The notes under the pieces: generated by a model
The model's database searches: none
Told to the model about the DNA's origin: nothing
What the model saw: only the letters and a program-made list of their open reading frames with translations
In this document: one piece after another, positions 10,375 to 43,857 of the stretch
Position numbering within the stretch: the first letter of the stretch is position 1
How the letters are laid out: each line of letters begins with the position of its first letter
Assembly (NCBI RefSeq): GCF_963921235.1
Contig: NC_086097.1
Span: forward strand, 6,510,001-6,574,000
Origin: Mobula hypostoma
Lineage: Eukaryota
DNA length: 64,000 bases
Reading direction: 5' to 3'
Made by a program: the position numbers and the translations under genes

Positions 10375-11285
10375 TCCAAGTCAAGTCAAGTTTATTGTCA
10401 TTTAATTATATACATGTATATCATCAAATGAGACAATGTTTCTCCAGACCAGAGTGTATGGCACAATAGTACACATAACACACAACAACTTAGAAAAGTA
10501 AGAATTAAACTTACAAATGAATTATGCATAGATAAACAAAGTAAGGTGCATAAATCCTGACGAAGGGTCTTGGCCCGAAACGTCGACTGTACCCCTTCCT
10601 AGAGATGCTGCCTGGCCTGCTGCGTTCACCAGTAACTTTTATGTGTGTTGCATATATTAAATATTGTCGGGTACAGTACAAATTATCCAGCAACACTTTG
10701 AATGTGATGCAGTAGGATGATCAGAAGCCTAATGGCCTGAGGGAAAAAGCGGCTTGCCATCCTGACTTTATGCATCAGAGTCTCATGCCTGATGGTAGAA
10801 AGTCAAAGAGGATGCTGGATGGATGGCTGTGGTCCTTGATAGTACTCAGAGCCCTGCGTATCCTGATAAATGTCCCTAATGGATGGTAGGGAGATCCCTA
10901 TGATCCTCTCAACTGTTCTCACAGTCCTTTGTCACGACTTCCAGTCCGATGCTTGGCTGCTCCTGTACCAGATGGCTACGCAGCTTGTCAGGGCACTCTC
11001 AATCATGCTCCTGCAAAATTCAGTTAAGATGGGGTTGGTGGGGGGAACCTCACTTTCCTCAATCTTCTCAGGAAGAGGAGGTGCTGCTGTGCCTTCTTAT
11101 TCAGGGAGACAATATTGAGGGGCCAGCTGACGTAAACTCCCAAGAACGGAGCACGTAACTCTCTCTACAGAGAAGCCATGTACGCATAGAGGGGGGGCTG
11201 GTTCATCCTCACCTTCCTAAAGTCCACAATCATTTCCTTGGTCTTCTCCACTTTCAGACTTAGGTTGCTGTTCTCACACCTAGAG
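10375..11285 (-). mobile_element. Rex1/Babar-type LINE, decayed 3' part (hosts the 10553-10650 insert)
   Basis: CAAGTCAAGTCAAGTTTATTGTC tail; NLSLKVEKTKEMIVDFRK in ORF 11165-11626. Confidence 0.75.
10555..10589 (+). ncRNA. Minimal type I hammerhead ribozyme motif in a PLE terminal-repeat fragment
   Basis: TC-CTGACGA-A-GGG-TCTTGG-CCC-GAAA-C-GTC-GACTG: intact CUGANGA and GAAA boxes, helix II, palindromic ACGU helix III and GUC cleavage triplet. Helix I is only 2 bp in this copy. Confidence 0.75.
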
Positions 11286-11809
11286 GAGGATGCAAAATTC
11301 AATGTCATCCATCCCTCTTTCTTACGGTGGCATGATGCTGATGTAAATGTCAATAAACTGATTGAGATCATGACACTACAATATCCTTTCTCTCTTGAGA
11401 GGGGACCACATGAACAAAGTCTTTTGTTATCTGTCAGTGTGAGACAAATGCAGCTTACTCTATGCTTATATTTAATCGTTCCACTTGGACGCATCTGTAC
11501 TCTCATTGCATATCCTTTTCTCACAAAAGAGAAGAATAAAAAGTAATTGTGAAAGATAAGCAAAGCAAAAACAAAGAAGAATAAGGGATGAGACCAAAGA
11601 TTCATCTTGTTATAACTGTAATACATGTATTGAAACTATAATGATATGAATCTTTAGTCCAGAATTCAGCTGTTTGAGTTTAATGAGTTTAATATTTTAA
11701 AAGAAGAGATTTTTTAATATTCTAACAGACACTAAACAAATTAACATTTTAGTAACTGTGAATATCTCTGAAGAGGGGCACATGTATTAATTTCATGGTG
11801 TGTTTTGAA

Positions 11810-12975
11810 ATCAAGTTCAAGTTTGTTGTCATTCATCCATACACATGTATACTACCAAATGAAACAATGATCCTCCAGACCAAGGTGCACAACACAGTAC
11901 ACATAACTGACACACAACATATAAAGTAATATTACCACAATTAAATTAACAAATAATAAAATATATTCCAGAAGCTTGACTTTAGGCATGAAGTTTATTT
12001 ACAACGCAGGTCGAAAAGTAAAGAGTATATCGCACTTGGTGCTTCATACATGATGAGGCCTGGATGTGGCTGCGAGTTCAGTGGTCTCACGACCTGGGGA
12101 AGAAGCTGTTTCCCACCCTAACAGCTCTCGTTCTAATCCTACAGTACCTTCAGCCTGATGGTAGGGTTTGAAAGAGATTGTGGGACAGATGGAAGGAGAG
12201 ACAGGATGGATGTGGAGAGGATGTTTCCTCTGGTGGGGGTATCCAGAACTAAAGGGCACAGCCTCTAAATTGAGGGGTGACCTTTTAGAACAGAGGCAAT
12301 GGGGATTTCTTTTAGCCAAAGAGTAGTAAATCTGTGGAATGTTGTGCCACAAACTGTGGTGCAAATCCATTGGTATACTCAAGGCAGAAGTTGATAGTTT
12401 CCTGATCGGTCAAAGCAACAAAGGATATGGCGAGAAGGCAGATGTATAGGATTTTAGTGGGATCCAGGATCAGCCATGATGGAATGGTGGAGCAGATTCG
12501 TGGACTGAGTGACCTAATTCTGCTGTTATGTCTTATGGTTTTATGGAAGGGATCATTGGCCCTGAGTATGCACCGCTCCTGATAAATATCTTGGAGGAGT
12601 GGAAGAGAGACTCTGTTAATCTCTCAGTAGTCCTCACAATCCTTTGTAGGGACTTGCAGTCAGATGCCTTGGAACTACCGCTTCAGATGGTGATGCAGAT
12701 GGTCGGGACACTCTCAGTGGTGCTCCTGAGGGGAGAAACCTCACTCTCTTCAGTTTTCTCAGGAAGTGGAGCTGCTGCTGCTGTGGTTTCCTGACTAAAG
12801 AGGTGGTATTGAGGGACCAGATGAGACTGCACCTCCAGAAACTTGGTGCTCCTAACTCACACCACGGAGGAGCCACTGATGTGCGGTGAGAAGTAGTCAG
12901 TCTGCACCTTCAAAAGTCCACGATCATCTATGTTGATGGCCCAGTTGCTGTGCTCACATCATTCTACAAGCCACA
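11810..12975 (-). mobile_element. Rex1/Babar-type LINE, decayed, split by CR1 12197-12542
   Basis: CAAGTTCAAGTTTGTTGTC tail; LIWSLNTTSLVRKPQQQQLHFLRKL in ORF 12634-12876. Confidence 0.75.
12197..12542 (+). mobile_element. CR1 LINE 3' end with 8-bp TSD ATGGAAGG
   Basis: ATGGAAGG at 12189-12196 and 12543-12550; tail TGTCTTATGGTTTTATGG. Confidence 0.88.
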
Positions 12976-13464
12976 ATCAGCTGGGTAGAGGGCTGCAGTG
13001 CAACTGATTGTTGTCAGTTGTTGAATTTTCCATGGGGAAGGTCAGGTTCTCACCAACTGTCATAGCCATTGTATGTGCAGCTGGACACATGTATTGAGAA
13101 GGTCCTTGCACTGTACTGAGGGACTCTGATGTGCTGGCAGCAAAGTTCCTGGGACATCTGTAATTATGGGACAAGGTAATACCCATAATGCCATTCAGCA
13201 CACTAATGTGAGTCCTGTAGATATAAAATAGTGTCCTGCAAACTGTAGAAGAGTAAAATCAACTGTTTCTCCTGATACTTCCACAATACCTTATTATGTT
13301 GTTTTTTTCGGTTCCACATAAGAAATTCAAGGCAGCCAAATAAAGCACACTCCAAGACTGTAATCATAAATTCTGGAAAAAGTATTAACTACAAAAACAT
13401 GAGTTACAAGTTAATTTTTAGGTAGGATATACAGTAGTTTTAAATTACATGAAGACAAGAGATT

Positions 13465-13582
13465 CTGCTAGAAATCCAGAGCAACACACACAAAGTGCTG
13501 GAGGAACTCAGCAGGTCAGGCAGCACCTATGGAAATAAATAAACAGTTGACATTTTGGGTCGAGACCCTTCATGAGGACTGA
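13465..13582 (-). mobile_element. PLE terminal-repeat fragment with decayed hammerhead
   Basis: Reverse complement CAGTCCTCATGAAGGGTCTCGACCCAAAATGTCAACTG..GCTGAGTTCCTCCAGC. Confidence 0.75.
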
Positions 13583-13734
13583 GCATTACTAAATTAATTA
13601 ACGCACCCAATCAAAAAATAATCTCACTAATTTGTATCAACCTTTGGTAGCTGATCACAACTGTCAAAATAAAATACACGTACATTATAATTGAATTAGA
13701 TCCAGAATCAGAATCAGTCTTAAAATGTGTGGAG

Positions 13735-14405
13735 TCCTTATGCAGGAATCCTACAGGTTAACTTACAGGTTGAGTCTGTGGTGAGGAAGGCAAATGCAGT
13801 ATAAGCATTCATTTCAAGAGGACTAGAATATAAAAGCAAGGATGTAATGTTGAAACTTTATAAAGCACTGGTGAGCCCTCACTTGGTGTATTGTGAGCAT
13901 GTTTGGGCCACTTCTCTCAGAGAGGATGTGCTGAAACTGGAGAGGGTTCAAAGGAGGTTTCAGGAAAATGACTCTAGGATTGAATGGCTTGTCATATGAA
14001 GAGCATCTGATGGTTCTGGACCTGTATTCACTAGAACTCAGAAGAAGGAGGGGTGACTTCATTGAAGCCTATGGAATGATGAAGGGCCCTGATAGAGTGG
14101 ATTTGGAAAGGAGGCTTCCTAAGGTGGGACCAGAGGACAACATCTTAGAATAGAGTGGCATCATTTTAGAATGGAGATGAGGAGGAATTTCTTTAGCCAG
14201 AGAGTGGTGAATCTGTGGAATTCTTTGCCACAAGCAGCTGTGGAGGTCAAGTCTTTTGGTGTATTTAAGGCAGAGGTTGATAGATTCTTGATTGGTCAGA
14301 ACATGGATGGATACGGGGAGAAGGCAGGAGATTGGGGCTGAGAGGAAAACCATGATGAAATGGTGGAGCAGACTTGATGGGCCAAATGGCCTCATTCTGC
14401 ACATA
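13735..14405 (+). mobile_element. CR1 LINE 3' part, decayed
   Basis: GLSYEEHL..LYSLELRRRRGDFIE in ORF 13968-14153; CR1 3' UTR. Confidence 0.85.
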
Positions 14406-15209: not shown

Positions 15210-16430
15210 AGTTTCAAACTCCTGGGAGTGCACATCTCGCACAAACTCTCCTGGTCCCAAAACATATTGTGCACAATCAGGAAAGTTAACCAATGCCGCT
15301 CCTATCTCTGGGAGCTGAGGAGAGCTGGGCTATGCACATCTATATTCACATCATTCTACAGGATGCAGTAGAGAGCATCCCAACCGGCTGCCCCCAGTGT
15401 GGCCTCCTCAATATCGATGAAGCCAGATGTAGATGGGGAGACTATTTCGCTGAGCACCCACACTCCATCCACCAAAAAAGTAGGATCTCCCAGAGGCCTC
15501 TCATTTTAATTCCACTTCCCATTCCCATTCTGATATAACATTCCATAGCCTCCTCTACTGTCTCGATGAGGTCACACTCACGTTGGAGGAACAACACCCT
15601 ATATTCCGTCTGGGTAGCTTCCAACCTGATGGCATGAACATTGATTTCTTCAACTTCTGGTAATGACCCCCTCCCCTCCCTTCACCAGTCCCTATCCCCT
15701 TTTCCCTCTCTCACCTTATCTCCTTGCCTGCCCATCGCCTCCCTCTGGTGCTTCTTCCCACTTTTCTTTCTTCCATGGCCTTCTGTTCTCTCCTTTCAAA
15801 CTCTCCCTTCTTCAGCCCTGTATCTCTTCCACCAATCAACTTCCCAGCTCTTTACGTCATTACTCCTCCTCCTGGTTTCACCTGTCACCTTGCCTTTCTC
15901 TCTCCCCTCCCCCACCTTGTAAATCTACTCCTCATCTTTTTTTCTCCAGTCTTGCCGAAGGGGCTCAGCCCAAAATGTCCCCTGTACCTTTTTCCGTAGA
16001 TGCTGCCTGCCTGCTGAGTTCCATCTCTGCATGATGTGGAAACTGCACTGTAGCAGATGGGAAGGCATTACAACAGGTAGTCAAAACTGCCCAACGTATC
16101 ACTGGCACCAGTCTGCATGCAAGGACATATATATATATAGAAAAGTGCATCAGGGTGGAAGCTACGTAACATCCACACCAGGGCCACCAGACTCAAAAAC
16201 AGTTGCTTTCCCCAAGCAGCAACTCTGATCAACACCTCCACCCACTAACGCACCATCCACACCCCCAACCACCACCATTTTATCACTTCCAGTCAGAGTC
16301 ACCTTATGTACAGACACTCCTGTACCCAGCGTCACTTTATAGACATACAATCAGTCAATGTACAGTATATAAACTATCTTAGATATTTATATTTATTATG
16401 TCTTTTTTAATATTGTGTTTTTTGTGTTGT
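15210..16430 (+). mobile_element. Rex1/Babar-type 3' part split by a Penelope-like insert (about 15391-16021)
   Basis: ESIPTGC stops at 15390 and the I.A..GNCT continuation resumes at about 16022. The insert carries GIY-YIG C-terminal sequence, a pyrimidine-rich terminal repeat and a decayed hammerhead at about 15947-15985. Confidence 0.8.
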
Positions 16431-16512: not shown

Positions 16513-16580
16513 TGGCGCGTGGCCAAGTGGTTAAGGCATCAGTCTAATAATCTGAAGGTTGCTAGTTCAAGCCTCAGCTG
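16513..16580 (+). mobile_element. tRNA-derived SINE head (not an intact tRNA)
   Basis: A-box TGGCCAAGTGG and B-box-like AGTTCAAGCC; acceptor and anticodon stems do not close. Confidence 0.55.
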
Positions 16581-18448: not shown

Positions 18449-18819
18449 ACTTTTTAACTTACAGTCATTATGTATTGCAATGACCATTGCCGCAAAACAA
18501 CAACTTTCACAACATATGCCAAGGATATTAAACCTGATTCTGATGTGGATCCTATTTTTTTAAGACAGCTCAGGAGTTTCAAAATATCTTGAGGAACAAT
18601 CTTCAGAAGGAACACAGTAGATCAAGCTGTGGAGTGAAAAGAATTATTGGCCATTTAACCCAAAACCTCCAGATTCCAGTATCTAGGTTCTCATGTGTCT
18701 CACCAGAAGAATTCAGATGTTTCAAAAGCCTGCATTAACAAGTCATCACATGCTAATTTTCACTTGGCTGTCACTGGTAATTTGTTGATGTACCAAGGTA
18801 CAGTAAAAAGCTTAACTAT

Positions 18820-19340
18820 ATGATCATAAGACATAGAAACAATATTAGACTACTCGGCCCTTCAAATTTGCTCCACCATTCCATTGTGGTTGATGTATTA
18901 TCCCTCTCAACACCATTCCCCTGCCCTCTCCTTGTAAACTTTGATGCACTAACTAATCCAGAAACTATCAACCTCTGCTTTAAATAGATCCATTGACTGG
19001 GCCTCCACAACAGCCTGTGGTGATAGATTCCAACTGATTTACTTACCTTTGGCTAAAGATATTCTTCCTCACCTCTGTTCTAAATGGGCATCCCTTCTGT
19101 TCTGAGGCTGTGCCCTCTCGTCTTACTATAGGAAACATATTCATATCCACTCTGTCTAGGGCTTTAAATATTTGATAGGTTTCAATGACATCTCTCCTTA
19201 TCCTTCTGAACTCCAGCAAGTGCAGACCCAAACCTACCAAATACTCCTCATATGTTAACCATTTTATTTCTCGAATTATTCTTGTGAAAGTCCTCCAGTC
19301 ACACTCCAAAGCCAGTGCATCTTTTCATAGATAGGGGACC
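18820..19340 (-). mobile_element. CR1 LINE 3' part
   Basis: ORF 19043-19309 LTYEEYL..LEFRRIRRDVIETY..FRTEVRKNIFSQR. Confidence 0.85.
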
Positions 19341-22500: not shown

Positions 22501-23332
22501 TAAGAGAATGGGCAAATAAGTGGCAGATGGATTAGAGTATCAGAAGTGTATGGCCATGCACTTTGGTGGAAGAAATAAAATGCAGACTATTTTCTCAATG
22601 GAGAGAAAATCAAAAAATCTGAGATGCAAAGGGACTTGGGAGTCATTATGCAGGATTCCCTGAAGGCTAACTTGCACATTGAGCCAGTGGTGAGGAAGGC
22701 AACTGCAATGTTAACATTCATGTTGAGAGGACTATAAAAGCAAAGATGTAATGTTGAGACTTTAGAAAGCACTGCTGAGGCTTCACTTGGAGTACTGAGA
22801 GCAGTTTTGGGGTCCTTATCTAAGAAACGATGTGCTGACATTGGAGAGCATTCAAAGGAGGTTCATGAAAATGATTTAAGGATTGAAAAACTTATCATAT
22901 CAGGGCCTATACTCCCTGGAATTCAGAAGAATAAGGGGGAATCTCACTGAAACCCATCCAATGTTGAAAGGCCTCAATAGAGTGGGTGTGGAGAGAATGT
23001 TTCCTATGGTGGGGGAGTCTAAGACCAGAGACACAGCCCATTTAGACCAGAAAAGAAGGACGTCCATTTAGAAGGGAGATGAGGAGGAATTTCTTTAGAC
23101 AGAGAGTGATCCATCCATGGAATTCCTTGCATAGGTGGCTCTGGATGTCAAGTCATTGGGTATATTTAAGATAGTAGTTGATAAGCTCTTGATTAGTCAG
23201 GGCAAGAAAGGATACTAGGAGAAGGCAAGAGACTGGCACTGACAGGGAAATAGATCAGAGCCATGAATAAATGGCAGAGAAGACATGATGATTCAAATGG
23301 CTTATTTCAGCTCCTATATCTTATGGTCTTAT
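19600..23332 (+). mobile_element. Near full-length decayed CR1 LINE (ORF1 SGNH esterase remnant, ORF2 EN-RT with deletions)
   Basis: RTAVLIGDSII at about 19994; VLYLNVNSI, WIELRNSKGKK, KFADDMKVGG, GLYSLEFRR; tail ATCTTATGGTCTTAT. Confidence 0.9.
20586..20776. mobile_element. hAT (Charlie-like) MITE, 191 bp, inserted at the start of CR1 ORF2
   Basis: TIRs CAGAGGTAGGCAA / TTGCTGACCCCTG; perfect 8-bp TSD GTGTTATA at 20578-20585 and 20777-20784. Confidence 0.9.
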
Positions 23333-23334
23333 TA

Positions 23335-23760
23335 TCCAGAGGATGTTCATGAGAATGATTGCAGGAACAAAAGGGTTAATGTATGAGAAGTGTTTGATGG
23401 TTCTGGGCCTGTACTCACTGAGATTTGTAAGAATGTGAGGAGATCTCACTGAATCCTATTGAATATTGAAAGGGCTGTATAGCATGGATGTGGAGAAGAT
23501 GTTTCCTATAGTGGGGAGTCTATGTTCAGAGGACACAGGCTCAGAATAGAGGGATGTCCACTTAGAACAGAGATGAAGGAAAAATTCTTTAGCCAGAAGG
23601 TGAAGAATTTGAGGAATTATTTGCCATGGACAACTGTATTTACAGCAGTGGTTGATTGATTCTTGATTAATCAGGGTGTCAAAGGTTACGTGGAGAAGGA
23701 ATGGTGGATCAGACTTGATGGTCTGAATTCTGCTCCTATGTCTTATAGTCTTATGGTCAT
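23335..23760 (+). mobile_element. CR1 LINE 3' fragment, in tandem with the previous CR1
   Basis: GGCCTGTACTCACTGAGATTT..; tail ATGTCTTATAGTCTTATGG. Confidence 0.8.
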
Positions 23761-23908
23761 ACACTGCTCACAATACTTTAAGTCTTGCATTGCTCATAGA
23801 AATAGTCTCATCACATCAGTACATTAATGGACGATCAACAGAACACAGAACATGTTACTACAATTACAGAGAAAGTGCAATATAGGCAGACAATAGGATG
23901 CAAGGCTA

Positions 23909-24384
23909 CGAGGGGTGATTGATAGTTCGTAGTCTAAGGTAGAAGGAGTCAATTTTAGAAAACCTAGCACATTTATTTTTCAACATAGTCCCCTCCTACA
24001 TTTACACACTTAGTCCAGCAGTTGTGGAGCATATGGATCTTGGAGCCCCCGAAAGCGTCCACAGCAGGGGTGATTGATAAGTTCGTGGCCTAAGGTAGAA
24101 GGAGATGAGTTATTAACTGCAAACTTTCTGCATAATCACTCAAAGCATTGCATTGCATGTGCATGTAACAAGTGCTGTATAACTCATCTCCTTCTACCTT
24201 AGGCCACTAACTTATCAATTACCCATGCTGTGGACACTTTCTGGAGGTCCAAGATCCGTATGCTCCATGACCGCTGGACTAAGTGTGTAAATGTAGTAGG
24301 GGACTATGTTGAAAAATAAATGTGCTAGGTTTTCTAAAATTGACTCCTTCTACTTTAGGCCACAAACTTATCAATCACCCCTCT
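23909..24384. mobile_element. Tc1/mariner-type foldback MITE, 476 bp
   Basis: TA (23907-08) CGAGGGGTGATTGA...TCAATCACCCCTCT TA (24385-86); inverted arms of about 205 bp (23909-24113, 24179-24384) around a 65-bp spacer. Confidence 0.92.
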
Positions 24385-25842: not shown

Positions 25843-25942
25843 AGATACCCTCATCACATTGATAAGCCACTCTAGATTTTATCCAAATCTTTTTACATTT
25901 ACATTTCATATCTCCAGTGTTCTCCAGTCGGGTGTACATGAG

Positions 25943-26647
25943 CCCCAGACAGTCCTTCCAAGTGAGGCAACACTTCACTTGTGAGTCTGTTGGAGTCATC
26001 TATTGCATACGGTGCTCCTGGTGCGGCCTCCTCTACATCGGTGAAACCCGACGCAGATTAGGGGACCGCTTCGTCGAGCACCTCTGCTCTGTCCGCCACA
26101 ACAGACAGGATCTTCCGGTTGCCAACCACTTCAACTCTGCTTCCCACTCCCATTCAGATATGTCCATACATGGCCTCCTCTACTGCCATGATGAGGCTAA
26201 ACTCAGGTTGGAGGAGCAACACCTTATATACCGTCTGGGTAGTCTCCAGCCCCTTGGTATGAACATAGAATTCTCCAACTTCTGGTAATTCCCTCCCCCT
26301 CCCTTCCCCTATCCCTATTTCACTCTGCCCCCTCCTCCAGCTGCCTATCACCCCCCTCATGGTTCCGCCTCCTTCTACTACCCATTGTGTTTTCCCCTAC
26401 TCTTTCTTCACCTTTCCTGCCTATCACCTCCCTGCTTCCCCTCCCCCACCCCTTTATCTTTCCCCTTACTGGTTTTTCACCTGGAACCTACCAGCCTTCT
26501 CCTTCCCACCCTCTCCCCACCTTCTTTATAGGGCCTCTGCCCCCTCCCTCTACAGTCTTGACGAAGGGTTCCGGCCCGAAACGTCGACCGACCTTTTCCA
26601 CGGATGCTGCCCGACCTGCTGAGTTCCTCCAGCGTGTTGTGAGTGTT
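25943..26647 (+). mobile_element. Young Penelope-like element, 5'-truncated (GIY-YIG, terminal repeat, hammerhead)
   Basis: ORF 25917-26288 FTCESVGVIYCIRCSWCGLLYIGETRRRLGDRFVEH..PLGMN; perfect 13-bp TSD GGGTGTACATGAG at 25930-25942 and 26648-26660. Confidence 0.95.
26553..26590 (+). ncRNA. Minimal hammerhead motif, C3U variant
   Basis: CAGTC-TTGACGA-A-GGG-TTCCGG-CCC-GAAA-C-GTC-GACCG. Confidence 0.6.
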
Positions 26648-27027
26648 GGGTGTACATGAGGCTTGGTTTGAGAAAAATCGGGTCAGCTCAGAGGGAAAGC
26701 AAAGTGTAAGAGCATCCTGACTGCCCAAAGTGCAGGTTTTAAGGTTAGTCAAATCAGGACTAATATGTTGTATTGGAAACATCTGTCGATGTGCACCCAA
26801 ACTATAGAATAAACAACCCTAGAACTAGTTCCGTGCTTCATTTCTCACCAGCAGTCTGCAAATTCTTTTTTTTCCTTGATAGAGTTGGATGGGTGCTGGG
26901 TTCCATTGACTTCAAGTCATTACTTATGCCTGGCTTTTTAGTATCTAAGAGTGGCTTAAAAAATGATAGGAAGCACAAGTGACTGCAGGTGTTGGAATTT
27001 GGTGCAAAAAGATCTAGAATGTCACTT

Positions 27028-34719: not shown

Positions 34720-35390
34720 GGCCCCCATCACCCAGGATGTGCCCTCTTCTCGTTGCTACCATCAAGGAGGAGGTACAGGAGCCTGAAGACACACACTCAA
34801 CATTCTAGGAATAGTTTCTTCCCCACTGCTGCCATCCATTTTCTGAATGGATATTGAACCCATGTACACTACCTCACTATAGTTTTCTTTTTTTTTGCTC
34901 TCATTTTGCACTCCACTGCTGTAGTCTAAATCCAAAGTGGTGATGAAACAGCATATAGGCGGGTGATTGAAAATCTGGCTGAGTGGTGCCATAACAACAG
35001 CCTCTTATTCAAAGTCAGTAGAACAAAGGAGCTGATTATTGAGTCCAAGTGGAGGAAACCATAGATCTATGAGCCAGTCCCCATCAGGTATCAGAAATGC
35101 AGAGGGTCAGCAACGTCAAATTCCTCGGTGTTACCATTTCAGGCGATCTGTCCTGGGCACAGCACATAAACGTCATTACAAAGAAAACTCAGCAGCAATT
35201 CTACCTCCTCAGAGGTTTGCGAAGATTCAGCATGACGTCTAAAACTTTGACAACCTTCTAGAGACATGTGTATGGTGGAGATTTTGTTGACCGGTTACGT
35301 CACATTCTGGTATGGAAACACCAATTACCTGGAATGTAAATCCTACAAAAAGTAATGGATATGGCCAAGCCCATCATGGGTAAAGGACTG
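34720..35390 (+). mobile_element. Rex1/Babar-type fragments
   Basis: GAAAATCTGGCTGAGTGGTGCCATAACAAC (ENLAEWCHNN) and KELI motifs. Confidence 0.65.
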
Positions 35391-35391
35391 C

Positions 35392-36608
35392 AGCACACAC
35401 AAAATGCTGGTAGAACTCAGCAGGCAAGGCAGCATCTATGGAAAAAAAGTATAGTCATCGTTTCGTGCTGAAACCTTTCAGCAGGACGGGAGAAAGAAAG
35501 ATGAGGAGTCGATTTAAAGTAGGGGAAGGGAGAGAGAAATTCCAGGTGATAGGGAGGGATAAAGTAAAGGGGTGGGAAGTTGATTGGTGAAAGAGAAACA
35601 GGGCTGGAGAAGGGGGGATCTAATAGAGGAGGACAGAAGACCATGGAAGAAAGAAAAGGGGGAGGAGCACCAGAGGGAGGCGATAGGCAGGCAAGGAGAT
35701 AAGGTGAGAGAGGGAAAAGGGGACAGGGAATGGTGAAGGAGAGGAGTGGGGGCATTACCGGAAGTTGAAGAAATCGATGTTCATGCCTTTAGCTTGGAAG
35801 CTACCCAGACAGAATATAAGGTGTTGTTCCTCCAACCTGAGTGTGGCCTCATCGCAACAGTAGAGGAGGTCATGGATTAACACATTGGAATGGGAGTAGG
35901 AGGTGCAGTTAAAATGGGTGACAGTGGGAGATCCAGCTTCTTCTGTTGGATTGCACATAGGTGCTTGGCGAAGTGGTCTCCCAATCTACGTCCAGGTCTC
36001 ACCAATATGCAGGAGGTCACACCGGAGATAGTATATGACCCCAGCTGACTCATAGGTGAAGTGTCACCTCATCTGGAAGGACTGCTTGGGGCCCTGAATG
36101 GTAGTGAGGGAGGAGGTGTAGGGGCAGGTGTAGCACTTGTCTGCTTGCAAGGATAAGGGCCAGGAGGGAGGTCAGTGGGGAGGAGCGAATGGAAAAGGAG
36201 TCATGTAGGGAGTGATCCCTGCGGAAAGCAGCAAGTAGGGGGGAGGAGGGAAAGATGTGCTTGGTTGTGGGTGGAGGTGACGGAAGTTCCGGAGAATTAT
36301 GTACTGGACATGGCAGCTGGTGGGCTGGTAGTTGAGGACAAGAGGAACCCTATCTCTGGTAGGGTGGCGGGAAGATGGGGTAAGAGGAGATGTACATGAA
36401 ATGGAAAAGATATGGTTGAGGGCAGCGTTGATGGTGGAGGAAGGGAACCTTGGTCTTTGAAAGAGGAGGACATCTCCTTTGTTTTAGAATGAAAACCCTC
36501 AACCTGAGAGCAGATGTGGTGGAGATGGAGGAATTGTGAGAAGGGGATGGCATTTTTACAGGTAGCAGGGTGAGAAAAGGTGTAGTCCAGGTAGCTGTGA
36601 AAGTCCAT
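35392..36608 (-). mobile_element. Penelope-like element (RT thumb, GIY-YIG, terminal repeat)
   Basis: DFHSYLDYTFSHPATCKNAIPFSQFL (36297-36608); HFNCTSYSHS..RLEEQHLIFCLGS..GMNIDF (35755-35958). Confidence 0.92.
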
Positions 36609-36627
36609 GGATATCGCTCACATTGTT

Positions 36628-37450
36628 CTTCCCCACTGACCTCCCTCCTGGCACTTATTCTTGCAAGCAGAACAAGTGCTACACCTGCCCCTACACCTCC
36701 TCCATCACTACCATTCAGAGCCCCAAGCAGTCCTTCCAGGTGAGGCGATGCTTCACCTGTGAGGCTGTTGGGGTCATATACTCTGTCTGGTGCTCCTGGT
36801 GTGGCCTCTTGTATATTGGTGAGACCCAGCGTAGATTGGTAGACTGTTTCGTTGAGCACCTACATTCCGTCTGCCAGAAGAATGGGATCTCCCAGTGGCC
36901 ACCTATTTTATTTACACTTCCCATTCCCATTCCAATATGTCAATCCATGGCCTCCTCTACTGTCACGCTGAGGCCAAACTCAAGTTGGAGGAACACCTTA
37001 TATTCCGTCTGGGTGGCCTCCAACCTGATGGCATAAACATCGATTTCTCAAACTTCTGGTAATGCCCTCCCCCGGTCCTTCACCATTCCCCATCCCTTTT
37101 TCCCTCTCTCACCTTATCTCCTTGCCTGTCCATCTCCCGCCTCTGGTTCTCCTCCCCCTTTTCTTTCTTCCAAGGCCTTCTGTCTTCTATTATCAGACTC
37201 CGAATTCTCCAGCCCTGTATCTTTTTCACCAGTCAACTTCCCAGCTCTCTCTTCACACCAACCTCTCCCGGTTTCACCTATCACTTTGTGTTTCTCCCTC
37301 CTCTCTCCATCCCCCCCACACCTTATAAATCTACTCCTCATCTCTTTTTTTTTCTCCAGTCCTGCCGAGGAACCTTGGCTCAAATCGTCGACTTTACTTT
37401 TTCTCCATAGACGCTGCCTGCCCTACTAAGTTCCTCCAGCATTTTGTGTG
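36628..37450 (+). mobile_element. Penelope-like element (GIY-YIG, terminal repeat), inverted relative to 35392-36608
   Basis: PGTYSCKQNKCYTCPY..FTCEAVGVIYSVWCSWCGLLYIGETQRRL (36623-37036). Confidence 0.92.
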
Positions 37451-37993: not shown

Positions 37994-40509
37994 AGCAGTT
38001 ATAATGGGTGACTTCAATCTGCATGTAGATTGGGTGAACCAAATTGGTAAAGGTGCTGAGGAAGAGGATTTCTTGGAATGTATGCGGGATGGTTTTTTGA
38101 ACAAACATGTCGAGGAACCAACTAGAGAGTAGGCTATTCTGGACTGGGTTTTGAGCAATGAGGAAGGGTTAATTAGCAATCTTGTCGTGAGAGGCCCCTT
38201 GGGTAAGAGTGACCATAATATGGTGGAATTCTTCATTAAGATGGAGAGTGACATAGTTAATTCAGAAACAAAGGTTCTGAACTTAAAGAGGGGTAACTTT
38301 GAAGGTATGAGACGTGAATTAGCTAAGATAGACTGGCAAATGACACTTAAAGGATTGACGGTGGATATGCAATGGCAAGCATTTAAAGGTTGCATGGATG
38401 AACTACAACAATTGTTCATCCCAGTTTGGCAAAAGAATAAATCAAGGAAGGTAGTGCACCCGTGGCTGACAAGAGAAATTAGGGATAGTATCAGTTCCAA
38501 AGAAGAAGCATACAAATTAGCCAGAGAAAGTGGCTCACCTGAGGACTGGGAGAAATTCAGAGTTCAGCAGAGGAGGACAAAGGGCTTAATTAGGAAGGGG
38601 AAAAAAGATTATGAGAGAAAACTGGCAGGGAACATAAAAACTGACTGTAAAAGCTTTTATAGATATGTAAAAAGGAAAAGACTGGTAAAGACAAATGCAG
38701 GTCCCCTACAGACAGAAACAGGTGAATTGATTATGGGGAGCAAGGACATGGTAGACCAATTGAATAATTACTTTGGTTCTGTCTTCACTAAGGAGGACAT
38801 AAATAATCTTCCAGAAATAGTAGGGGACAGAGGGTCCAGTGAGATGGAGGAACTGAGCGAAATACTTGTTAGTAGGGAAGTGGTGTTAGGTAAATTGAAG
38901 GGATTGAAGGCAGATAAATCCCCAGGGCCAGATGGTCTGCATCCTAGAGTGCTTAAGGAAGTAGCCCAAGAAATAGTGGATGCATTAGTGATAATTTTTC
39001 AAAACTCGTTAGATTCTGGACTAGTTCCTGAGGATTGGAGGGTGGCTAATGTAACCCCACTTTTTAAAAAAGGAGGGAGAGAGAAACCGGGGAATTATAG
39101 ACCGGTTAGCCTAACATCGGTGGTGGGGAAATTGCTGGAGTCAGTTATCAAAGATGTGATAACAGCACATTTGGAAAGCGGTGAAATCATTGGACAAAGT
39201 CAGCATGGATTTGTGAAAGGAAAATCATGTCTGACGAATCTCATAGAATTTTTTGAGGATGTAACTAGTAGAGTGGATAGGGGAGAACCAGTGGATGTGG
39301 TATATTTGGATTTTCAAAAGGCTTTTGACAAGGTCCCACACAGGAGATTAGTGTGCAAACTTAAAGCACACGGTATTGGGGGTAAGGTATTGATGTGGAT
39401 GGAGAATTGGTTAGCAGACAGGAAGCAAAGAGTGGGAATAAACGGGACCTTTTCAGAATGGCAGGCAGTGACCAGTGGGGTACCGCAAGGCTCAGTGCTG
39501 GGACCACAGTTGTTTACTATATATATTAATGACTTAGACGAGGGAATTAAATGCAGCATCTCCAAGTTTGCGGATGACACAAAGCTGGGCGGCAGTGTTA
39601 GCTGTGAGGAGGATGCTAAGAGGATGCAGAGTGACTTGGATAGGTTGGGTGAGTGGGCAAATTCATGGCAGATGCAATTTAATGTGGATAAATGTGAAGT
39701 TATCCACTTTGGTGGCAAAAATAGGAAAACAGATTATTATCTGAATGGTGGCCGATTAGGAAAAGGGGAGGTGCAACGAGACCTGGGTGTCATTATACAC
39801 CAATCATTGAAAGTGGGCATGCAGGTACAGCAGGTGGTGAAAAAGGCGAATGGTATGCTGGCATTTATAGCGAGAGGATTCGAGTACAGGAGCAGGGAGG
39901 TACTACTGCAGTTGTACAAGGCCTTGGTGAGACCACACCTGGAGTATTGTGTGCAGTTTTGGTCCCCTAATCTGAGGGAAGACATCCTTGCCATAGAGGG
40001 AGTACAAAGAAGGTTCACCAGATTGATTCCTGGGATGGCAGGACTTTCATATGCAGAAAGACTGGATGAACTGGGCTTGTACTCGTTGGAATTTAGAAGA
40101 TTGAGGGGGGATCTGATTGAAACATATAAAATCCTAAAGGGATTGGACAGGCTAGATGCAGGAAGATTGTTCCTGATGTTGGGGAACTCCAGAACGAGGG
40201 GTCACAGTTTGAGGATAAAGGGGAAGCCTTTTAGGACCGAGATTAGGAAAAACTTCTTCACACAGAGAGTGGAGAATCTGTGGAATTCACTGCCACAGGA
40301 AACAGTTGAGGCTAGTTCATTGGCTATATTTAAGAGGGAGTTAGATATGGCCCTTGTGGCTAAAGGGATCAGGGCGTATGGAGGGAAGGCTGGTGCAGGG
40401 TTCTGAGTTGGATGATCAGCCATGATCATAATAAATGGCAGTGTAGGCTCGAAGGGCCGAATGGCCTACTCCTGCACCTATTTTCTATATTTCTATGTTT
40501 CTATGTTTC
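37994..40509 (+). mobile_element. Young CR1 LINE, 5'-truncated in the endonuclease domain, 7-bp TSD TATGCAC
   Basis: TATGCAC at 37987-37993 and 40510-40516; (TTTCTATG)n tail. Confidence 0.97.
38151..40406 (+). CDS. CR1 ORF2 reverse transcriptase, 751-aa open frame lacking the endonuclease N-terminus
   Basis: KSPGPDG, NYRPVSLTS, QHGF, YLDFQKAFDKVPH, GVPQGSVLGP and KFADDTKL all intact. The frame starts at a TTG; an in-frame TAG near 38129 corresponds to CAG in the 8067 copy. Not autonomous. Confidence 0.9.
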   Translation: MSNEEGLISNLVVRGPLGKSDHNMVEFFIKMESDIVNSETKVLNLKRGNFEGMRRELAKIDWQMTLKGLTVDMQWQAFKGCMDELQQLFIPVWQKNKSRKVVHPWLTREIRDSISSKEEAYKLARESGSPEDWEKFRVQQRRTKGLIRKGKKDYERKLAGNIKTDCKSFYRYVKRKRLVKTNAGPLQTETGELIMGSKDMVDQLNNYFGSVFTKEDINNLPEIVGDRGSSEMEELSEILVSREVVLGKLKGLKADKSPGPDGLHPRVLKEVAQEIVDALVIIFQNSLDSGLVPEDWRVANVTPLFKKGGREKPGNYRPVSLTSVVGKLLESVIKDVITAHLESGEIIGQSQHGFVKGKSCLTNLIEFFEDVTSRVDRGEPVDVVYLDFQKAFDKVPHRRLVCKLKAHGIGGKVLMWMENWLADRKQRVGINGTFSEWQAVTSGVPQGSVLGPQLFTIYINDLDEGIKCSISKFADDTKLGGSVSCEEDAKRMQSDLDRLGEWANSWQMQFNVDKCEVIHFGGKNRKTDYYLNGGRLGKGEVQRDLGVIIHQSLKVGMQVQQVVKKANGMLAFIARGFEYRSREVLLQLYKALVRPHLEYCVQFWSPNLREDILAIEGVQRRFTRLIPGMAGLSYAERLDELGLYSLEFRRLRGDLIETYKILKGLDRLDAGRLFLMLGNSRTRGHSLRIKGKPFRTEIRKNFFTQRVENLWNSLPQETVEASSLAIFKRELDMALVAKGIRAYGGKAGAGF

Positions 40510-40805: not shown

Positions 40806-40832
40806 AAATATTTTTGTCAAACCACATGATTA

Positions 40833-41115
40833 TAAACTCTACCAACGGTCCCAAGCCTGGCAGAGAACGGAGCTCCAACATGGGTGGGCCCAAGCCCAGC
40901 TGGGAATGGTGGAGGGTTCGTCATGGGGCCGGTAACCCTAACCTGTAAAAGTCCAGAGTTATAGAAACACCAACAGAAGCTCCAAAGATCTCACCCCTGA
41001 AGGATATACCATAAAGACGGGCTGCACCTGTGGACACCTTGAAAGATTGGCCCAGAACAGAGGACTCTGTTGAGCTACCCTCCAGTAGGGGTGATGGGCC
41101 TTGAGAAGAAGACAA
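40833..41115 (+). mobile_element. Short bipartite RTE-derived element with twister-like 5' end
   Basis: 5' AACTCTACCAACGGTCCCAAGCCTGG..GGAGGGTT..GGGGCCGGTAACCCTAACCTGTAAAA; 3' GAAAGATTGGCCCAGAACAGAGGACTCTG..CCAGTAGGGGTGATGGGC; homologous to 43405-43857 (minus). Confidence 0.7.
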
Positions 41116-41579: not shown

Positions 41580-42205
41580 CCATCTCCCTCTCTCTCTCTC
41601 CCTCTTTTTTTCCTCTCCCTCTTTCTCTCTCCCTCTGTCTTTCTTTCTCTCTCCCTCTCTCCAATGAAGCAGTGGAACCTATCTCAGTAAACCTACTTAA
41701 GACAAGGTTGGATAGATTTCTGTGTAGTAGGGAAATTAGGAGTTATGGGGAAAAGGCAGGTAGGTGGAGATGAGTCCATGGCCAGATCAGCCTTGATCCT
41801 ATTGAATGGTAGAACAGGCTCACTGGGCTGGATGGTCTACTCCTGCTCCTATTTCTTATGCTATTATAGTCTCTCCCTCTCTCGCTCACTTACTTTCTCT
41901 CACTTGCTTTCTCTCTCATTCTCCCTCCCTCTTTTGTCTTACCTTCTCTCGCTCTGCCTTTCTCTACCTCTTCTTCTCCCTCCCTCTTTTCTCTTACCTT
42001 CTCTCACTCTGCCTTTCTGTACCTCTTCTTCTCCCTCCCTCTTTTCTCTTACCTTCTCTCGCTCTGCCTTTCTCTATCTTCTCTTCTCCTTCTCTCTCTG
42101 CCCCTTTCTTTTGCTCCCTCTCTTTTTCCCTTCTTTCTCTCGCTCCTCTCTTTCTCTCTCTCCCCCTCCCCTTTCTCTCTACCTCCTGCTTGCTCTCTCT
42201 GGGAG

Positions 42206-42270
<65 letters not shown>
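41580..42270. repeat. Polypyrimidine tract with a 55-bp x3 tandem repeat (about 41919-42080), a CR1 3' tail (about 41665-41865) and (GA)n (42204-42270)
   Basis: CTCCCTCCCT recurs at 41921, 41976 and 42031; (GA)n read directly. Confidence 0.9.
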
Positions 42271-42275
<5 letters not shown>

Positions 42276-42784
42276 ATCACACCTGTAATAAGTGGCAATT
42301 GAAAGCTCAGCTCCAATTCTGTAAGCAAAGTTTGTTTCCCACTGAAATGAGAGATGCACTAAAATAAGTGTTGTTTACTCAGACCATTGACAAGCTTACC
42401 CATTGAAACAAACCACATTCTAATGGCATAATTGCTACAATTGGCTTTTGGAAATGCACAGATCCATTAGGCACAGCAGGCAATGGAAGCACAAAGAGAT
42501 ATTATAAAGGGGGAAATGAATAGACTATTCTACATGTAATTAGGAGATCAGAAGCAATAGATCTGAATTTGATGGTAACCAGGAAAAAGCATTGTTGGAA
42601 TGGCAACACAAGAAAGAATGTGTGTGGATGATGGATTCAATTAAATTCATGGTTTTCTCTGGCTGGATTAAATGTTTCAAGAAAAGTGCTGAGAAGCAAC
42701 AGCATAGATACTGTCAGTAGAAAAGTTTCCGAAGAAGCGGAAACAAATCATAGCTGAAGGCTTTTTTTATTTCTTGTAATCTAT

Positions 42785-43195
42785 TTCCATCCCCCTTCCC
42801 ACTTTTTCAACTCTCCAATCTGGTCTCTTCTCCCCACCTGCCTATCACCTCTCTGTAGTGCCTCTCTTCTTTCCCCTTCTCCCATGGTCCACTCTCATCT
42901 CCCATCAGATACCTTCTTGGGCAGCCCTTTACCTCTTCCACCTATCACCACCCAGCTTCCTTCAACATCACTTAGCACCCACCCACCCACTTGTCTTCAC
43001 CTATGACCTTCCAGCTTGATCTCCTCCCGCTCTCCCAGCCTTCTTATTCTGGGATCTTCCCCCTTCCTTTCCAGTCCTGAAGAAGGGTCTCAGCCGGAAA
43101 CATCAATAGTTTATTCTTTTCCACAGATGCTGCCTGACCTGCTGAGTTCCTCCAGTAATTTGTGTGGGTTGTTCTGGATTTCCAGCATCTACAGC
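42785..43195 (+). mobile_element. PLE terminal repeat with decayed hammerhead (43072-43107)
   Basis: CAGTC-CTGAAGA-AGGGTCTCAGCCG-GAAA-CATC..GATGCTGCCTGACCTGCTGAGTTCCTCCAG. Confidence 0.8.
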
Positions 43196-43404
43196 GTTAT
43201 TGATGAAGGTTACGAATCTTCTGAACTTGTGGGTAAAGTGGTTCCAGCTTTTGGAAGCATACGCTCACGAGGCTGAGGGGCTGCTCCAGGCTCGAGGCAG
43301 CAAACAATTCACTCAAATGAAAGCTCTCAATGGACCACTCAGTGTATCTGAGGACTGAGGAAAGTGTATTCAAAGGCCAACTTTCCAGTGGGTATGAGGA
43401 GTCT

Positions 43405-43857
43405 ATATGCCATCACCCCTACTGGGGCATAGACTGCCAGCAGAAGTCAAGGTAAAAGTCAAGTACATTTATTGTCAAAGTATGTGTATGATATACCACC
43501 TTGAGATTTGTCTCCTTACAGGCAGCCACAAGACAAAGAAACGCAATAGAACCCACTTGTAAAAAAAATTGAACGTCCAATGTGCAGAAAAAAAATCAAA
43601 TCGTGCAAACAACTGAAGTTCACAAAAGTGAGTCCATAGCCACAAAGCCAGTCATTACTGCTGCCTTCGTTCAGCTAGAGTCCTCTGTATTGGGCAGGAT
43701 GTAGCTCGTCAAAGATTCGTCCGCTCCCAGGGATGAGGTCTTTGAAGCTTCTGCTAGTGTCTCTGTAGCACTGGGTTTTTATGGGTTGGGGTAGCTAGCC
43801 CCATGCACAACCTTCCTCCTTTGGTAGCCGGGCTTGAAACCATCCATGGTGGGGTTA
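43405..43857 (-). mobile_element. Second copy of the twister-headed RTE-derived element, split by a Rex-type tail (about 43447-43675)
   Basis: Reverse complement TAACCCCACCATGGATGGTTTCAAGCCCGG..AAAGGAGGAAGGTTGTGCATGGGGCTAGCTACCCCAACCCATAAAAA; 3' end CCCCAGTAGGGGTGATGG at about 43409-43427. Confidence 0.7.

What the first reader, a model, noticed from the sequence alone, without database searches (positions are those of the whole stretch)
10555..43857. Three ribozyme classes (hammerhead, HDV-like, twister) on different retroelement families in one vertebrate locus
Each motif is listed separately above. Together they suggest this genome carries high-copy self-cleaving RNA modules partitioned by clade: hammerhead in PLEs, twister in one RTE-derived family, HDV-like in two others. 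Each association is known from other taxa. I do not know of a description for cartilaginous fish, but cannot check the literature. If the window is intronic, any active sense copy would cut the host pre-mRNA, which predicts strand bias.
Basis: inference. Interest (0 to 1): 0.75.

Follow-up and report, generated by a model that had tools for sequence, protein, structure and literature searches.

The report
Hammerhead and twister retroelements; no HDV-like
Two of the three claimed self-cleaving RNA types are real features of repeat families in this genome (a hammerhead in Penelope-like elements and a twister at the start of a short RTE-like element), but the copies in this window are mostly decayed and no HDV-like ribozyme could be found.

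Summary
Partly confirmed.

**Hammerhead: real.**
- A ~100-nt module starting at 10555 recurs 11 times in the window.
- Its consensus is a minimal, loop-III-less type-I hammerhead as described for Penelope-like elements (PLEs).
- 5 of the 11 copies lie 270-300 nt downstream of GIY-YIG-coding remnants.
- The window's 33-nt core has 111,607 genomic matches within 3 mismatches (reversed control 0).
- No window copy keeps every feature.

**Twister: real at family level.**
- The site ending at 43857 (minus strand) scores only 16.9 bits against Rfam twister-P1.
- It is a decayed copy of a ~285-nt SINE-like, RTE-like element. 18 of 20 tested copies hit twister-P1 and nothing else. In that sample the scores were 15.9-39.8 bits; genome-wide the best is 46.9 bits (E 3.7e-6).
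- All scores are below the 67.2-bit cutoff, because the P3 hairpin is missing.
- Copies begin at the U^AA cleavage site, and target-site duplications abut it in 7 of 24 copies against 2 of 96 controls.
- The architecture and the lineage-specific helices match the Perere-3 (RTE) twister of Schistosoma mansoni (Liu et al. 2021).

**HDV-like: not found.**
- Rfam gave nothing, for the window, for 11-kb pieces, or genome-wide.
- Two structure descriptors gave chance-level counts.

Both ribozyme-element associations are already known elsewhere. The vertebrate twister-RTE case looks new.

The parts
10555..10650 (+). Hammerhead module copy c10555. Both core boxes, the extra A, a 4-bp stem II, the ACGU palindrome and C17 are intact. 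It is 5'-truncated inside stem I (3 of 5 pairs).
   Evidence: exact 33-nt core recurs many times genome-wide
10199..10314 (-). Decayed hammerhead module copy, head-to-head with c10555 about 240 nt away
13481..13578 (-). Decayed hammerhead module copy (both core boxes mutated)
15950..16021 (+). Decayed hammerhead module copy, preceded by PLE endonuclease-coding remnant
25866..26285 (+). GIY-YIG endonuclease ORF remnant of a Penelope-like element, ending about 270 nt before module copy c26556
   Evidence: PF01541, 22.8 bits against cutoff 22.6, E 1.1e-4; translation
26556..26648 (+). Hammerhead module copy c26556 (C3 changed to U; the rest of the core is intact)
35389..36265 (-). PLE 3' fragment ending in module copy c35486 (35389-35486)
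36623..37450 (+). PLE 3' fragment (frameshifted GIY-YIG coding end) ending in module copy c37360 (37360-37450). It lies head-to-head with the previous fragment.
40834..40870 (+). Partial extra twister-like head directly upstream of the next copy. My own reading of the sequence; no other tool was used.
40873..41114 (+). Decayed copy of the twister-headed SINE-like element (head roughly 40871-40927)
   Evidence: no Rfam hit at E<=10 in an 11-kb scan
43075..43171 (+). Hammerhead module copy c43075 (boxes intact; palindrome and stem I decayed)
43695..43857 (-). Decayed, interrupted copy of the twister-headed element. The ribozyme-like head is 43861-43807, and the family's 5' boundary is at 43857/43856. 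A remnant of the body lies at 43447-43410.
   Evidence: (16.9 bits)
45508..45611 (-). Hammerhead module copy c45611 (boxes and palindrome intact; stems I and II weakened)
48396..48486 (+). Hammerhead module copy c48396 (G5 changed to A). Its upstream 556 nt are 94% identical to the PLE end at 26092-26647.
61619..61698 (-).

Best explanation
The window is a repeat-rich stretch holding decayed copies of two retroelement families whose ancestral sequences carried self-cleaving ribozymes.

(1) Penelope-like elements. Their 3' (pLTR-type) tail holds a minimal type-I hammerhead with these features:
- helix I of 5 bp;
- the CUGANGA box, then one extra A;
- a 4-bp helix II starting G-C;
- the GAAA box;
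- no loop III, only the palindrome ACGU, so helix III can form only between two copies;
- cleavage expected after C17.

(2) A ~285-nt 'bipartite' non-autonomous element made of the 5' end and the 3' coding end of an RTE-like LINE.
- Its first ~55 nt are a P3-less type-P1 twister.
- Inferred mechanism: read-through or host-driven transcripts are cut between U and A. The RNA that is reverse-transcribed therefore starts with AA, and each new insertion takes the P1 5' strand (and the U) from its flank or target-site duplication. This is what was shown for Perere-3 in Schistosoma mansoni.

Shown here: sequence and structure membership, copy numbers, 5' boundaries, TSD adjacency, and the link to GIY-YIG coding sequence.
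Inferred: catalysis, the RTE clade, and the role in 5' processing.

No HDV-like ribozyme is present above chance. Most copies, including all those in the window, are inactivated, largely by CpG decay.
For: Hammerhead
- The consensus of 8 and then 24-29 copies shows every emergent feature that Cervera & De la Pena 2014 list for PLE min-HHRs (paper text read).
- Feature counts in 29 copies: extra nucleotide A in 26; G10.1-C11.1 in 19; CUGANGA in 13; GAAA in 11; ACGU in 9.
- Pairs: 72.7% of cells paired against 19-40% when partners are slid.
- 5 of 11 window copies follow homologous GIY-YIG-coding sequence.
- 111,607 genomic matches within 3 mismatches of the window core, control 0.

Twister
- 18 of 20 copies hit RF03160 only, with best E 1.3e-6.
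- Genome-wide there are 57 matches, the best 46.9 bits at E 3.7e-6.
- 24 of 39 genomic matches begin at query positions 43-46, which is the U^AA site.
- In contigs of 4 other coded runs, 4,141-6,271 contigs pile on the element, and unrelated flanks begin at the U or at the first A.
- TSDs abut the start in 7 of 24 copies against 2 of 96 controls.
- P2 is 92%, P4 89% and T2 82% paired, against 51% for the flank-dependent P1 and 37-57% for slid controls.
- The segment-by-segment layout equals the S. mansoni twisters in Table 1 of Liu et al. 2021, including P2 CUCC/GGAG, L4 GUCCCAAGC, GAGGG and the P1 3' strand UUGG.
- Two deletion subfamilies share the head and tail, and one locus has an RTE-like C-terminal ORF after the head.
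Against: - No Rfam hammerhead model hits any module copy. A genome-wide RF00163 search found nothing, though only 73 of about 380,711 candidates were scored. Those models expect a helix III hairpin.
- All twister scores are below Rfam's gathering score (at most 46.9 against 67.2), because P3 is absent.
- Neither family shows covariation beyond shuffled controls. The folds are properties of one consensus each, not independently supported by compensatory change.
- No cleavage or RNA data exist.
- Published PLE min-HHRs cleave poorly in vitro. In an Anolis PLE the hammerhead was not needed for insertion in vitro.
- Only 28 twister heads genome-wide lie within 2 mismatches of the intact form, 5 of them exact. 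The family may be extinct.
- The RTE assignment rests on C-terminal motifs that I recall, not on a tool result. No autonomous partner was retrieved.
- The U before AA is present in only 13-16 of 29 copies.
Confidence: 0.75

Rival explanations
1. The twister-like head is an inherited but catalytically dead 5' UTR relic in this lineage. The sharp 5' end at AA reflects a transcription start or some other processing, not ribozyme cleavage.
For: - Scores are below the Rfam cutoff and P3 is lost.
- The element does not encode the P1 5' strand, and P1 is only 51% paired.
- There is no covariation.
Against: - The 5' boundary coincides to the nucleotide with the canonical twister cleavage site.
- TSDs abut it. 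This is the same signature used as evidence of in vivo cleavage for Perere-3.
- The conserved loops and both pseudoknots are intact in the best copies.
- Liu et al. state that cleavage, though inefficient, can occur without P1.
- P3-less natural twisters are active, as I recall for the rice example; this was not checked here.
Confidence: 0.15
2. HDV-like ribozymes are present on other LINE or SINE families, but they are too decayed or too divergent for my searches.
For: - The twister copy in the window was also invisible to whole-window Rfam scans and was found only through its family.
- Rfam's HDV-like models are lineage-specific.
- The genome-wide searches scored only 34-84 candidates each.
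- HDV-like ribozymes are known at the 5' ends of RTE and five other LINE clades (passage).
Against: - There was no hit in the window, in 11-kb pieces or genome-wide, while the same genome-wide route did recover the twister.
- Two descriptors gave counts at chance level.
- The one candidate near a repeat edge (12054-12143) is internal and antisense to a LINE 3' coding end.
- No 5'-intact LINE lies in the interval. The CR1-like LINE at 38133-40490 is 5'-truncated.
- No other RTE-type tail is visible.
Confidence: 0.15
3. The motifs are chance look-alikes in repeats, and no ribozyme ancestry is involved.
For: - Window copies score at noise level: twister 16.9 bits, and no hammerhead hit at all.
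- There is no covariation.
Against: - Family-level twister E-values are 1.3e-6 in the sample and 3.7e-6 for the whole genome, and twister-P1 is the only family hit.
- Reversed-pattern controls gave 0, against 28 and 111,607 matches.
- Every published min-HHR feature is present in the consensus.
- The hammerhead module is physically linked to GIY-YIG ORFs.
Confidence: 0.03

Closest known systems
Twister 'T-variant' ribozymes at the 5' end of Perere-3 (RTE clade) in Schistosoma mansoni (Liu et al. 2021, NAR; abstract, introduction, one results section, discussion and passages read)
   Same: - The ribozyme is at the extreme 5' end of a non-LTR element.
- Cleavage at U^AA leaves a 5'-AA on the element.
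- The P1 5' strand comes from the flank or TSD, and TSDs abut the cleavage site.
- Several segments have the same sequence: P2 CUCC/GGAG, L2 GC, L4 GUCCCAAGC, P4 3' strand CCGG, L1 GAGGG and the P1 3' strand UUGG (their Table 1 compared).
- An ATG-initiated open frame follows the ribozyme (my reading).
   Different: - The host is a vertebrate-sized 3.48-Gb genome, not a flatworm.
- The ~25-nt P3 hairpin is replaced by a 5-6-nt linker.
- The 3' L2 segment is longer (CUGCGAAA instead of GUAAA).
- The copies seen are ~285-nt non-autonomous deletion derivatives. An autonomous partner was not retrieved.
- Activity is untested.
Minimal hammerheads of Penelope-like elements (Cervera & De la Pena 2014, MBE; main text read)
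   Same: - A type-I core without loop III, so the presumed active form is a dimer.
[quoted passage not shown]
- A G10.1-C11.1 pair.
- Palindromic 15.2-16.2.
- Helix I of 4-5 bp.
- Location in the PLE terminal repeat region.
- Mostly solitary, truncated copies, plus pairs on opposite strands 100-700 bp apart.
   Different: - Helix II is 4 bp here, against 7-8 bp in the S. mansoni families.
- The copy number is much higher than the ~4,000 (coelacanth) and ~9,000 (Xenopus) quoted there. Those counts used a different method, so the comparison is rough.
- Cartilaginous fishes are not named in the text I read.
Bipartite non-autonomous LINEs (Kojima 2018, GBE; passages read)
   Same: The element consists of the 5' end plus the 3' end of its parent LINE. 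RTE is one of three clades said to make them, and a 5' self-cleaving ribozyme is invoked to explain why the true 5' end is kept.
   Different: That paper refers to HDV-like ribozymes (citing Ruminski et al. 2011). Here the 5' ribozyme is a twister.
HDV-like ribozymes at 5' ends of R2, RTE, L1Tc and other LINEs (Ruminski et al. 2011; Eickbush & Eickbush 2010; known to me only through citations)
   Same: The proposed role is the same: 5' processing of a co-transcript, and possibly translation initiation.
   Different: It is a different fold. No HDV-like fold was found in this window or genome by my searches.

Membership tests
PLE minimal hammerhead (min-HHR) | Catalytic boxes CUGANGA and GAAA in type-I order | tested here: met
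   Present in the module consensus. Both boxes are intact in 7 of 29 copies, including window copies c10555, c43075 and c45611.
PLE minimal hammerhead (min-HHR) | [quoted passage not shown] | tested here: met
   Extra A in 26 of 29 copies; G..C closing pair in 19 of 29. Criteria taken from the paper text.
PLE minimal hammerhead (min-HHR) | No loop III; palindromic 15.1-16.1 so that helix III forms between two copies | tested here: met
   ACGU directly followed by C17 in the consensus. It is exact in 9 of 29 copies, and the two palindrome pairs are 81.3% paired in 24 copies.
PLE minimal hammerhead (min-HHR) | Helices I (4-5 bp) and II present | tested here: met
   Helix I is 61.7% and helix II 82.3% paired, against 19-40% overall for slid partners. 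There is no covariation beyond shuffles.
PLE minimal hammerhead (min-HHR) | Location in the terminal repeats of an element encoding RT and a GIY-YIG endonuclease | tested here: met
   GIY-YIG hit at 25866-26285. 5 of 11 window copies follow homologous endonuclease-coding sequence. No full-length PLE with both repeats lies in the window.
PLE minimal hammerhead (min-HHR) | Match to Rfam hammerhead models | tested here: not met
   No hit at E<=10 in the window, in small loci or in 11-kb pieces, and none genome-wide for RF00163. My inference is that these models include a helix III hairpin that min-HHRs lack.
PLE minimal hammerhead (min-HHR) | Self-cleavage after H17 | not testable with these tools
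   Thermodynamic folds recover stems I and II but say nothing about catalysis.
Twister ribozyme, type P1 (Perere-3 'T-variant' kind) | Score at or above Rfam RF03160 gathering score (67.2 bits) | tested here: not met
   Best scores are 39.8 bits in the sample and 46.9 bits genome-wide. E-values are still significant (1.3e-6 and 3.7e-6). The deficit comes from the deleted P3 hairpin in the printed alignments.
Twister ribozyme, type P1 (Perere-3 'T-variant' kind) | Conserved loop nucleotides: UAA site, GC(C) after P2, GUCCCAAGC loop, AAA, GAGGG | tested here: met
   All are present in the best genomic copies (alignments; A2). Both window copies have lost several of them.
Twister ribozyme, type P1 (Perere-3 'T-variant' kind) | Helices P2 and P4 and pseudoknots T1 and T2 | tested here: met
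   In 26 copies P2 is 92.1%, P4 89.2%, T2 82.1% and T1 65.4% paired, against 37-57% for slid partners. There is no covariation. I placed the pseudoknot pairs from memory of the solved structures.
Twister ribozyme, type P1 (Perere-3 'T-variant' kind) | P1 helix closing the ribozyme | tested here: inconclusive
   The 3' strand (UUGG) is conserved. The 5' strand lies in the flank and pairs in 51% of cells. The same situation is described for T-variants.
Twister ribozyme, type P1 (Perere-3 'T-variant' kind) | Position at the 5' terminus of a non-LTR element, with TSD next to the cleavage site | tested here: met
   24 of 39 matches start at the site. TSDs abut it in 7 of 24 copies against 2 of 96 controls. 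Contig loose ends fall at the U or first A in 4 runs.
Twister ribozyme, type P1 (Perere-3 'T-variant' kind) | Parent element of the RTE clade | tested here: inconclusive
   The tail and one nearby ORF read like RTE C-terminal motifs, but I recognise these from memory. No autonomous copy was retrieved.
Twister ribozyme, type P1 (Perere-3 'T-variant' kind) | Self-cleavage between U and A | not testable with these tools
   No assay was possible and no RNA run holds the locus.
HDV-like ribozyme | Nested double pseudoknot (P1, P1.1, P2, P3, P4) with a J4/2 cytosine | tested here: not met
   Strict descriptor: 1 site (63545-63643, outside the interval) against 0-1 in 5 shuffles. Flexible descriptor: 5 rows against 1-3 in 4 shuffles. 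I wrote both descriptors from memory of the fold.
HDV-like ribozyme | Match to Rfam HDV-like families | tested here: not met
   None at E<=10 in the window or in 11-kb pieces. None genome-wide for RF00094, RF01788 or RF02682, while the same route found the twister.
HDV-like ribozyme | Location at the 5' terminus of a LINE or SINE family | tested here: not met
   The only descriptor hit near a repeat edge (12054) is internal and antisense to a LINE 3' coding end.

The most novel reading that the evidence does not exclude
The twister-RTE partnership shown in a flatworm also exists in a vertebrate. An RTE lineage of this (probably cartilaginous-fish) genome used a P3-less twister for 5' processing. 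That twister shares the lineage-specific P2 and P1 strands of the Schistosoma Perere-3 ribozyme. The module is therefore either ancestral to RTE elements of protostomes and deuterostomes or was moved between them horizontally. A few intact copies (5 exact heads) may still self-cleave. The same genome holds more than 10^5 PLE hammerhead cores.
Probability: 0.5. Interest if true: 0.6.

Novelty: new member of a known kind. Interest (0 to 1): 0.45.

Why it matters
- A biological role for twister ribozymes has so far been shown, to my knowledge and in my searches, only for Perere-3 in Schistosoma mansoni. A vertebrate family with the same 5'-terminal architecture and nearly the same helices would show the role is general to an RTE lineage. 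It would also give a second system in which to test ribozyme-defined 5' ends, P1 supplied by the target site, and cap-independent translation of the downstream ORF.
- The family shows that whole-window Rfam scans miss decayed ribozyme copies, which become clear once the repeat family is assembled.
- The hammerhead part extends a known PLE feature to a genome where it is extremely abundant.
- The negative result on HDV-like motifs corrects the 'three classes in one locus' headline.

Tried and rejected
- Whole-window Rfam at gathering and at E<=10: no ribozyme. This proved uninformative for decayed copies.
- Simple hammerhead descriptor: 3 hits. Only 10557-10580 lies in a repeat family. I did not pursue 11768-11810 (31-nt insert) or 15815-15794 (3-bp stem).
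- First HDV descriptor run: flooded by a microsatellite and discarded.
- HDV descriptor hits 3304, 19681/19696 and 15469(-) were not followed up individually, because the total count is at shuffle level. The hit at 12054 was followed up and rejected.
- A six-frame scan for an RTE-type C-terminal motif found no further RTE tails.
- First TSD script: failed to detect tails. Replaced.
- RNA evidence: no RNA holder listed for the best twister locus. All laid runs were contigs, which cannot show RNA ends.
- Homodimer and monomer folds of natural hammerhead copies: not decisive.
- Supplement of Liu et al. 2021, which lists vertebrate T-variants, could not be read. It may already name related species.
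- The original twister paper was not held under the id I recalled.
- Earlier-findings look-ups returned nothing.
- I could not fetch more genome for a repeat library, or the DNA downstream of the best twister heads (loci not cut). As a result the autonomous partner, full copy numbers and family-wide HDV tests remain open.
- I considered a protein search to fix the RTE clade but did not run it, because database names would not resolve LINE clades.

Full report
**What was claimed.** Coordinates of the single motifs were not passed on. The interval starts at a hammerhead-like string and ends at the U of a UAA on the minus strand.

**First pass.**
- Rfam at gathering score finds only a borderline tRNA-like hit at 16518-16580.
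- At E<=10 the 54 hits are all microsatellite- or hairpin-driven miRNA, snoRNA and lncRNA look-alikes. None is a ribozyme.
- Taken at face value this would refute the finding. The repeat-family analysis below shows that it does not.

**Hammerhead.**
- At 10557-10589 the plus strand reads, in order: CUGANGA, one extra A, a 4-bp hairpin, GAAA, ACGU, C, then GACUG.
- A 26-nt probe from it matches twice in the window, against 0 expected.
- BLAST and alignment show a ~100-nt module with 8 copies, and then 11 copies in the window plus 18 in about 151 kb of sampled genome.
- The consensus has helix I CAGUC/GACUG.
- It also has every feature that Cervera & De la Pena (2014; text read) list as emerging from PLE min-HHRs:
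  - a G10.1-C11.1 pair (19 of 29);
  - palindromic 15.2-16.2 with no loop III (ACGU exact in 9 of 29);
  - a short helix I (all counts).
- In 24 alignable copies (5 of the 29 were dropped for indels), 72.7% of pair cells are paired, against 19-40% with slid partners. There is no covariation beyond shuffles.
- Much of the decay is CpG-type and removes G12 (my reading).
- Only 1 of 29 copies, in the genome sample, keeps all features. None of the 11 window copies does. c10555 keeps the core, stem II and the palindrome but is truncated within helix I.
- Link to PLEs: Pfam finds a GIY-YIG domain at 25866-26285. 5 of 11 window copies lie 270-300 nt downstream of homologous endonuclease-coding sequence.
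- Two head-to-head arrangements occur (10314/10555 and 35389-36265/36623-37450). The 2014 paper also mentions pairs on opposite strands.
- Genome-wide, the window's own 33-nt core has 111,607 matches within 3 mismatches (55,848 forward, 55,759 reverse; reversed control 0). All 100 rows listed are exact matches.
- No Rfam hammerhead model hits any copy. A genome-wide RF00163 search scored only 73 of about 380,711 candidates and found none. I attribute this to the missing helix III hairpin.
- Function is open. Min-HHRs cleave weakly in vitro. In an Anolis PLE the hammerhead cleaved only with the element's protein and was not needed for insertion in vitro (passages).

**Twister.**
- On small loci, Rfam twister-P1 gives 16.9 bits (gathering score 67.2) for window 43861-43807 on the minus strand, with broken P1 and P2 pairs and no P3. 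By itself that is noise.
- A genome search with 43900-43690 (minus strand) returned 1,920 first-look candidates and 40 scored matches. 24 of the 39 non-self matches begin at query positions 43-46, which is the U^AA.
- The aligned copies share a head that follows the conserved positions of the Rfam consensus.
- 18 of 20 copies fetched as 131-nt loci hit twister-P1 and no other family. Scores are 15.9-39.8 bits and the best E is 1.3e-6.
- A genome-wide Rfam search gives 57 matches at E<=10, the best 46.9 bits at E 3.7e-6, almost all 55 nt long.
- Every score is below the curated cutoff, because the P3 hairpin is replaced by a 5-6-nt linker (alignments).
- In 26 heads, P2, P4, T2 and T1 are 92%, 89%, 82% and 65% paired. 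The flank-dependent P1 is 51% paired and slid controls are 37-57%. There is no covariation.
- Differences among copies are mostly CpG decay from one ancestral head (my reading).
- Only 28 sites genome-wide lie within 2 mismatches of the intact 46-nt head (5 exact, 4 with one mismatch, 19 with two; control 0).

**The element carrying the twister.**
- It is about 285 nt long. The head comes first, then an ATG-initiated short open frame directly after the ribozyme, then a deletion junction, then a tail.
- I recognise the tail, from memory, as the C-terminal coding end and 3' end of an RTE-type LINE.
- A second deletion subfamily shares the head and tail. One locus has an RTE-like C-terminal ORF 345 nt after the head.
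- This is the 'bipartite non-autonomous LINE' architecture of Kojima 2018 (passages).
- TSDs abut the AA start (offset 0-3 nt) in 7 of 24 testable copies, against 2 of 96 displaced-window controls.
- The preceding base is T in 13-16 of 29 copies.
- Contigs of four other coded runs (organisms J to M) pile on the element only, with 4,141-6,271 contigs laid per run. Unrelated loose ends start at the U (84, 73 and 58 contigs) or at the first A (101, 120, 66 and 57 contigs). Single contigs bridge the orthologous flank into the head.
- The window holds two decayed copies: 43857-43695 (-), with a remnant at 43447-43410, and 40873-41114 (+). A partial extra head lies at 40834-40870 (my reading).

**Comparison with what is known.**
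- Liu et al. 2021 showed twister variants at the 5' end of Perere-3 (RTE clade) in S. mansoni. Cleavage leaves 5'-AA, TSDs sit next to the site and form the P1 5' strand, and cleavage permits downstream translation.
- Their Table 1 gives segments identical to this family in P2, L2 (5' part), L4, the P4 3' strand, L1 and the P1 3' strand.
- The differences here are the absent P3 and a longer 3' L2.
- They mention vertebrates among 2,060 variants, but the supplement could not be read.
- My searches found no paper describing a twister on a vertebrate retroelement, nor ribozymes in cartilaginous-fish repeats. The exception is one chondrichthyan genome sampled for tandem hammerhead retrozymes in a 2026 preprint (passages).

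**HDV-like.**
- There is no Rfam hit in the window, in three 11-kb pieces, or genome-wide for three HDV-like families (few candidates scored). The same genome-wide route recovered the twister.
- My strict descriptor gave 1 site, outside the interval, against 0-1 in shuffles. My flexible descriptor gave 5 rows against 1-3.
- The hit at 12054-12143 lies inside a repeat whose copies extend well upstream of it, and it is antisense to a LINE 3' coding end.
- The only long LINE in the interval (38133-40490) looks CR1-like and is 5'-truncated.
- No other RTE-type tail was seen.
- A boundary map against about 151 kb of sampled genome showed no short family with an HDV-like head.

**Verdict.**
- Two of the three classes are real family-level features, each matching a known ribozyme-retroelement association.
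- The window copies are fossils.
- The HDV-like claim is unsupported.
- The twister-headed RTE-like element in a vertebrate is the part worth following up.

Noticed in passing
window 16518-16580 (+): tRNA-like match at exactly the Rfam gathering score (29.1 against 29). Probably the head of a tRNA-derived SINE rather than a tRNA gene.
   Followed up: no
window 1954-2134 and 42107-42271: A (TG)n/(TA)n microsatellite and a second low-complexity tract produce dozens of spurious miRNA and snoRNA sub-threshold hits. They also flooded my first HDV descriptor run.
   Followed up: partly
window 23907-24389: Foldback-type repeat. The same sampled locus (L011) matches it on both strands, and plant miRNA models give sub-threshold hits (MIR161, 36.4 bits). 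Possibly a MITE-like inverted-repeat element.
   Followed up: no
window 40834-40870 (+): A partial second twister-like head sits directly upstream of the 40873 copy, joined within the P2 3' strand. No sampled copy shares this, so it may be a template-switch or local duplication.
   Followed up: partly
L030:1556 onward; alignment: An ATG conserved in at least 90% of copies opens a frame of about 30 codons immediately after the twister. This recalls ribozyme-linked translation initiation reported for HDV-like and Perere-3 ribozymes.
   Followed up: partly
alignments A2 and A3; In both ribozyme families most substitutions are CpG to TpG or CpA. In the hammerhead this removes G12 and the palindrome. 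In the twister it removes the T1 G and a P4 pair.
   Followed up: partly
window 12198-12546, 13731-14400, 18812-19332, 22335-23333, 23335-23759: Five copies of one abundant LINE 3' end with sharp common termini. ORFs nearby carry the Pfam ALKBH8_N-like motif, which here marks a LINE RT C-terminus.
   Followed up: partly
L030:1300-1530 in runs X19-X22: The same insertion, flank plus twister head, is bridged by single contigs with about 4% differences in four differently coded organisms. The insertion therefore seems shared among close relatives, yet it keeps all of its CpGs.
   Followed up: no
L026:2033 onward: A 368-aa open frame that reads like a PLE reverse transcriptase lies next to an RTE-like fragment. 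This shows how densely the two element kinds are nested in this genome.
   Followed up: no
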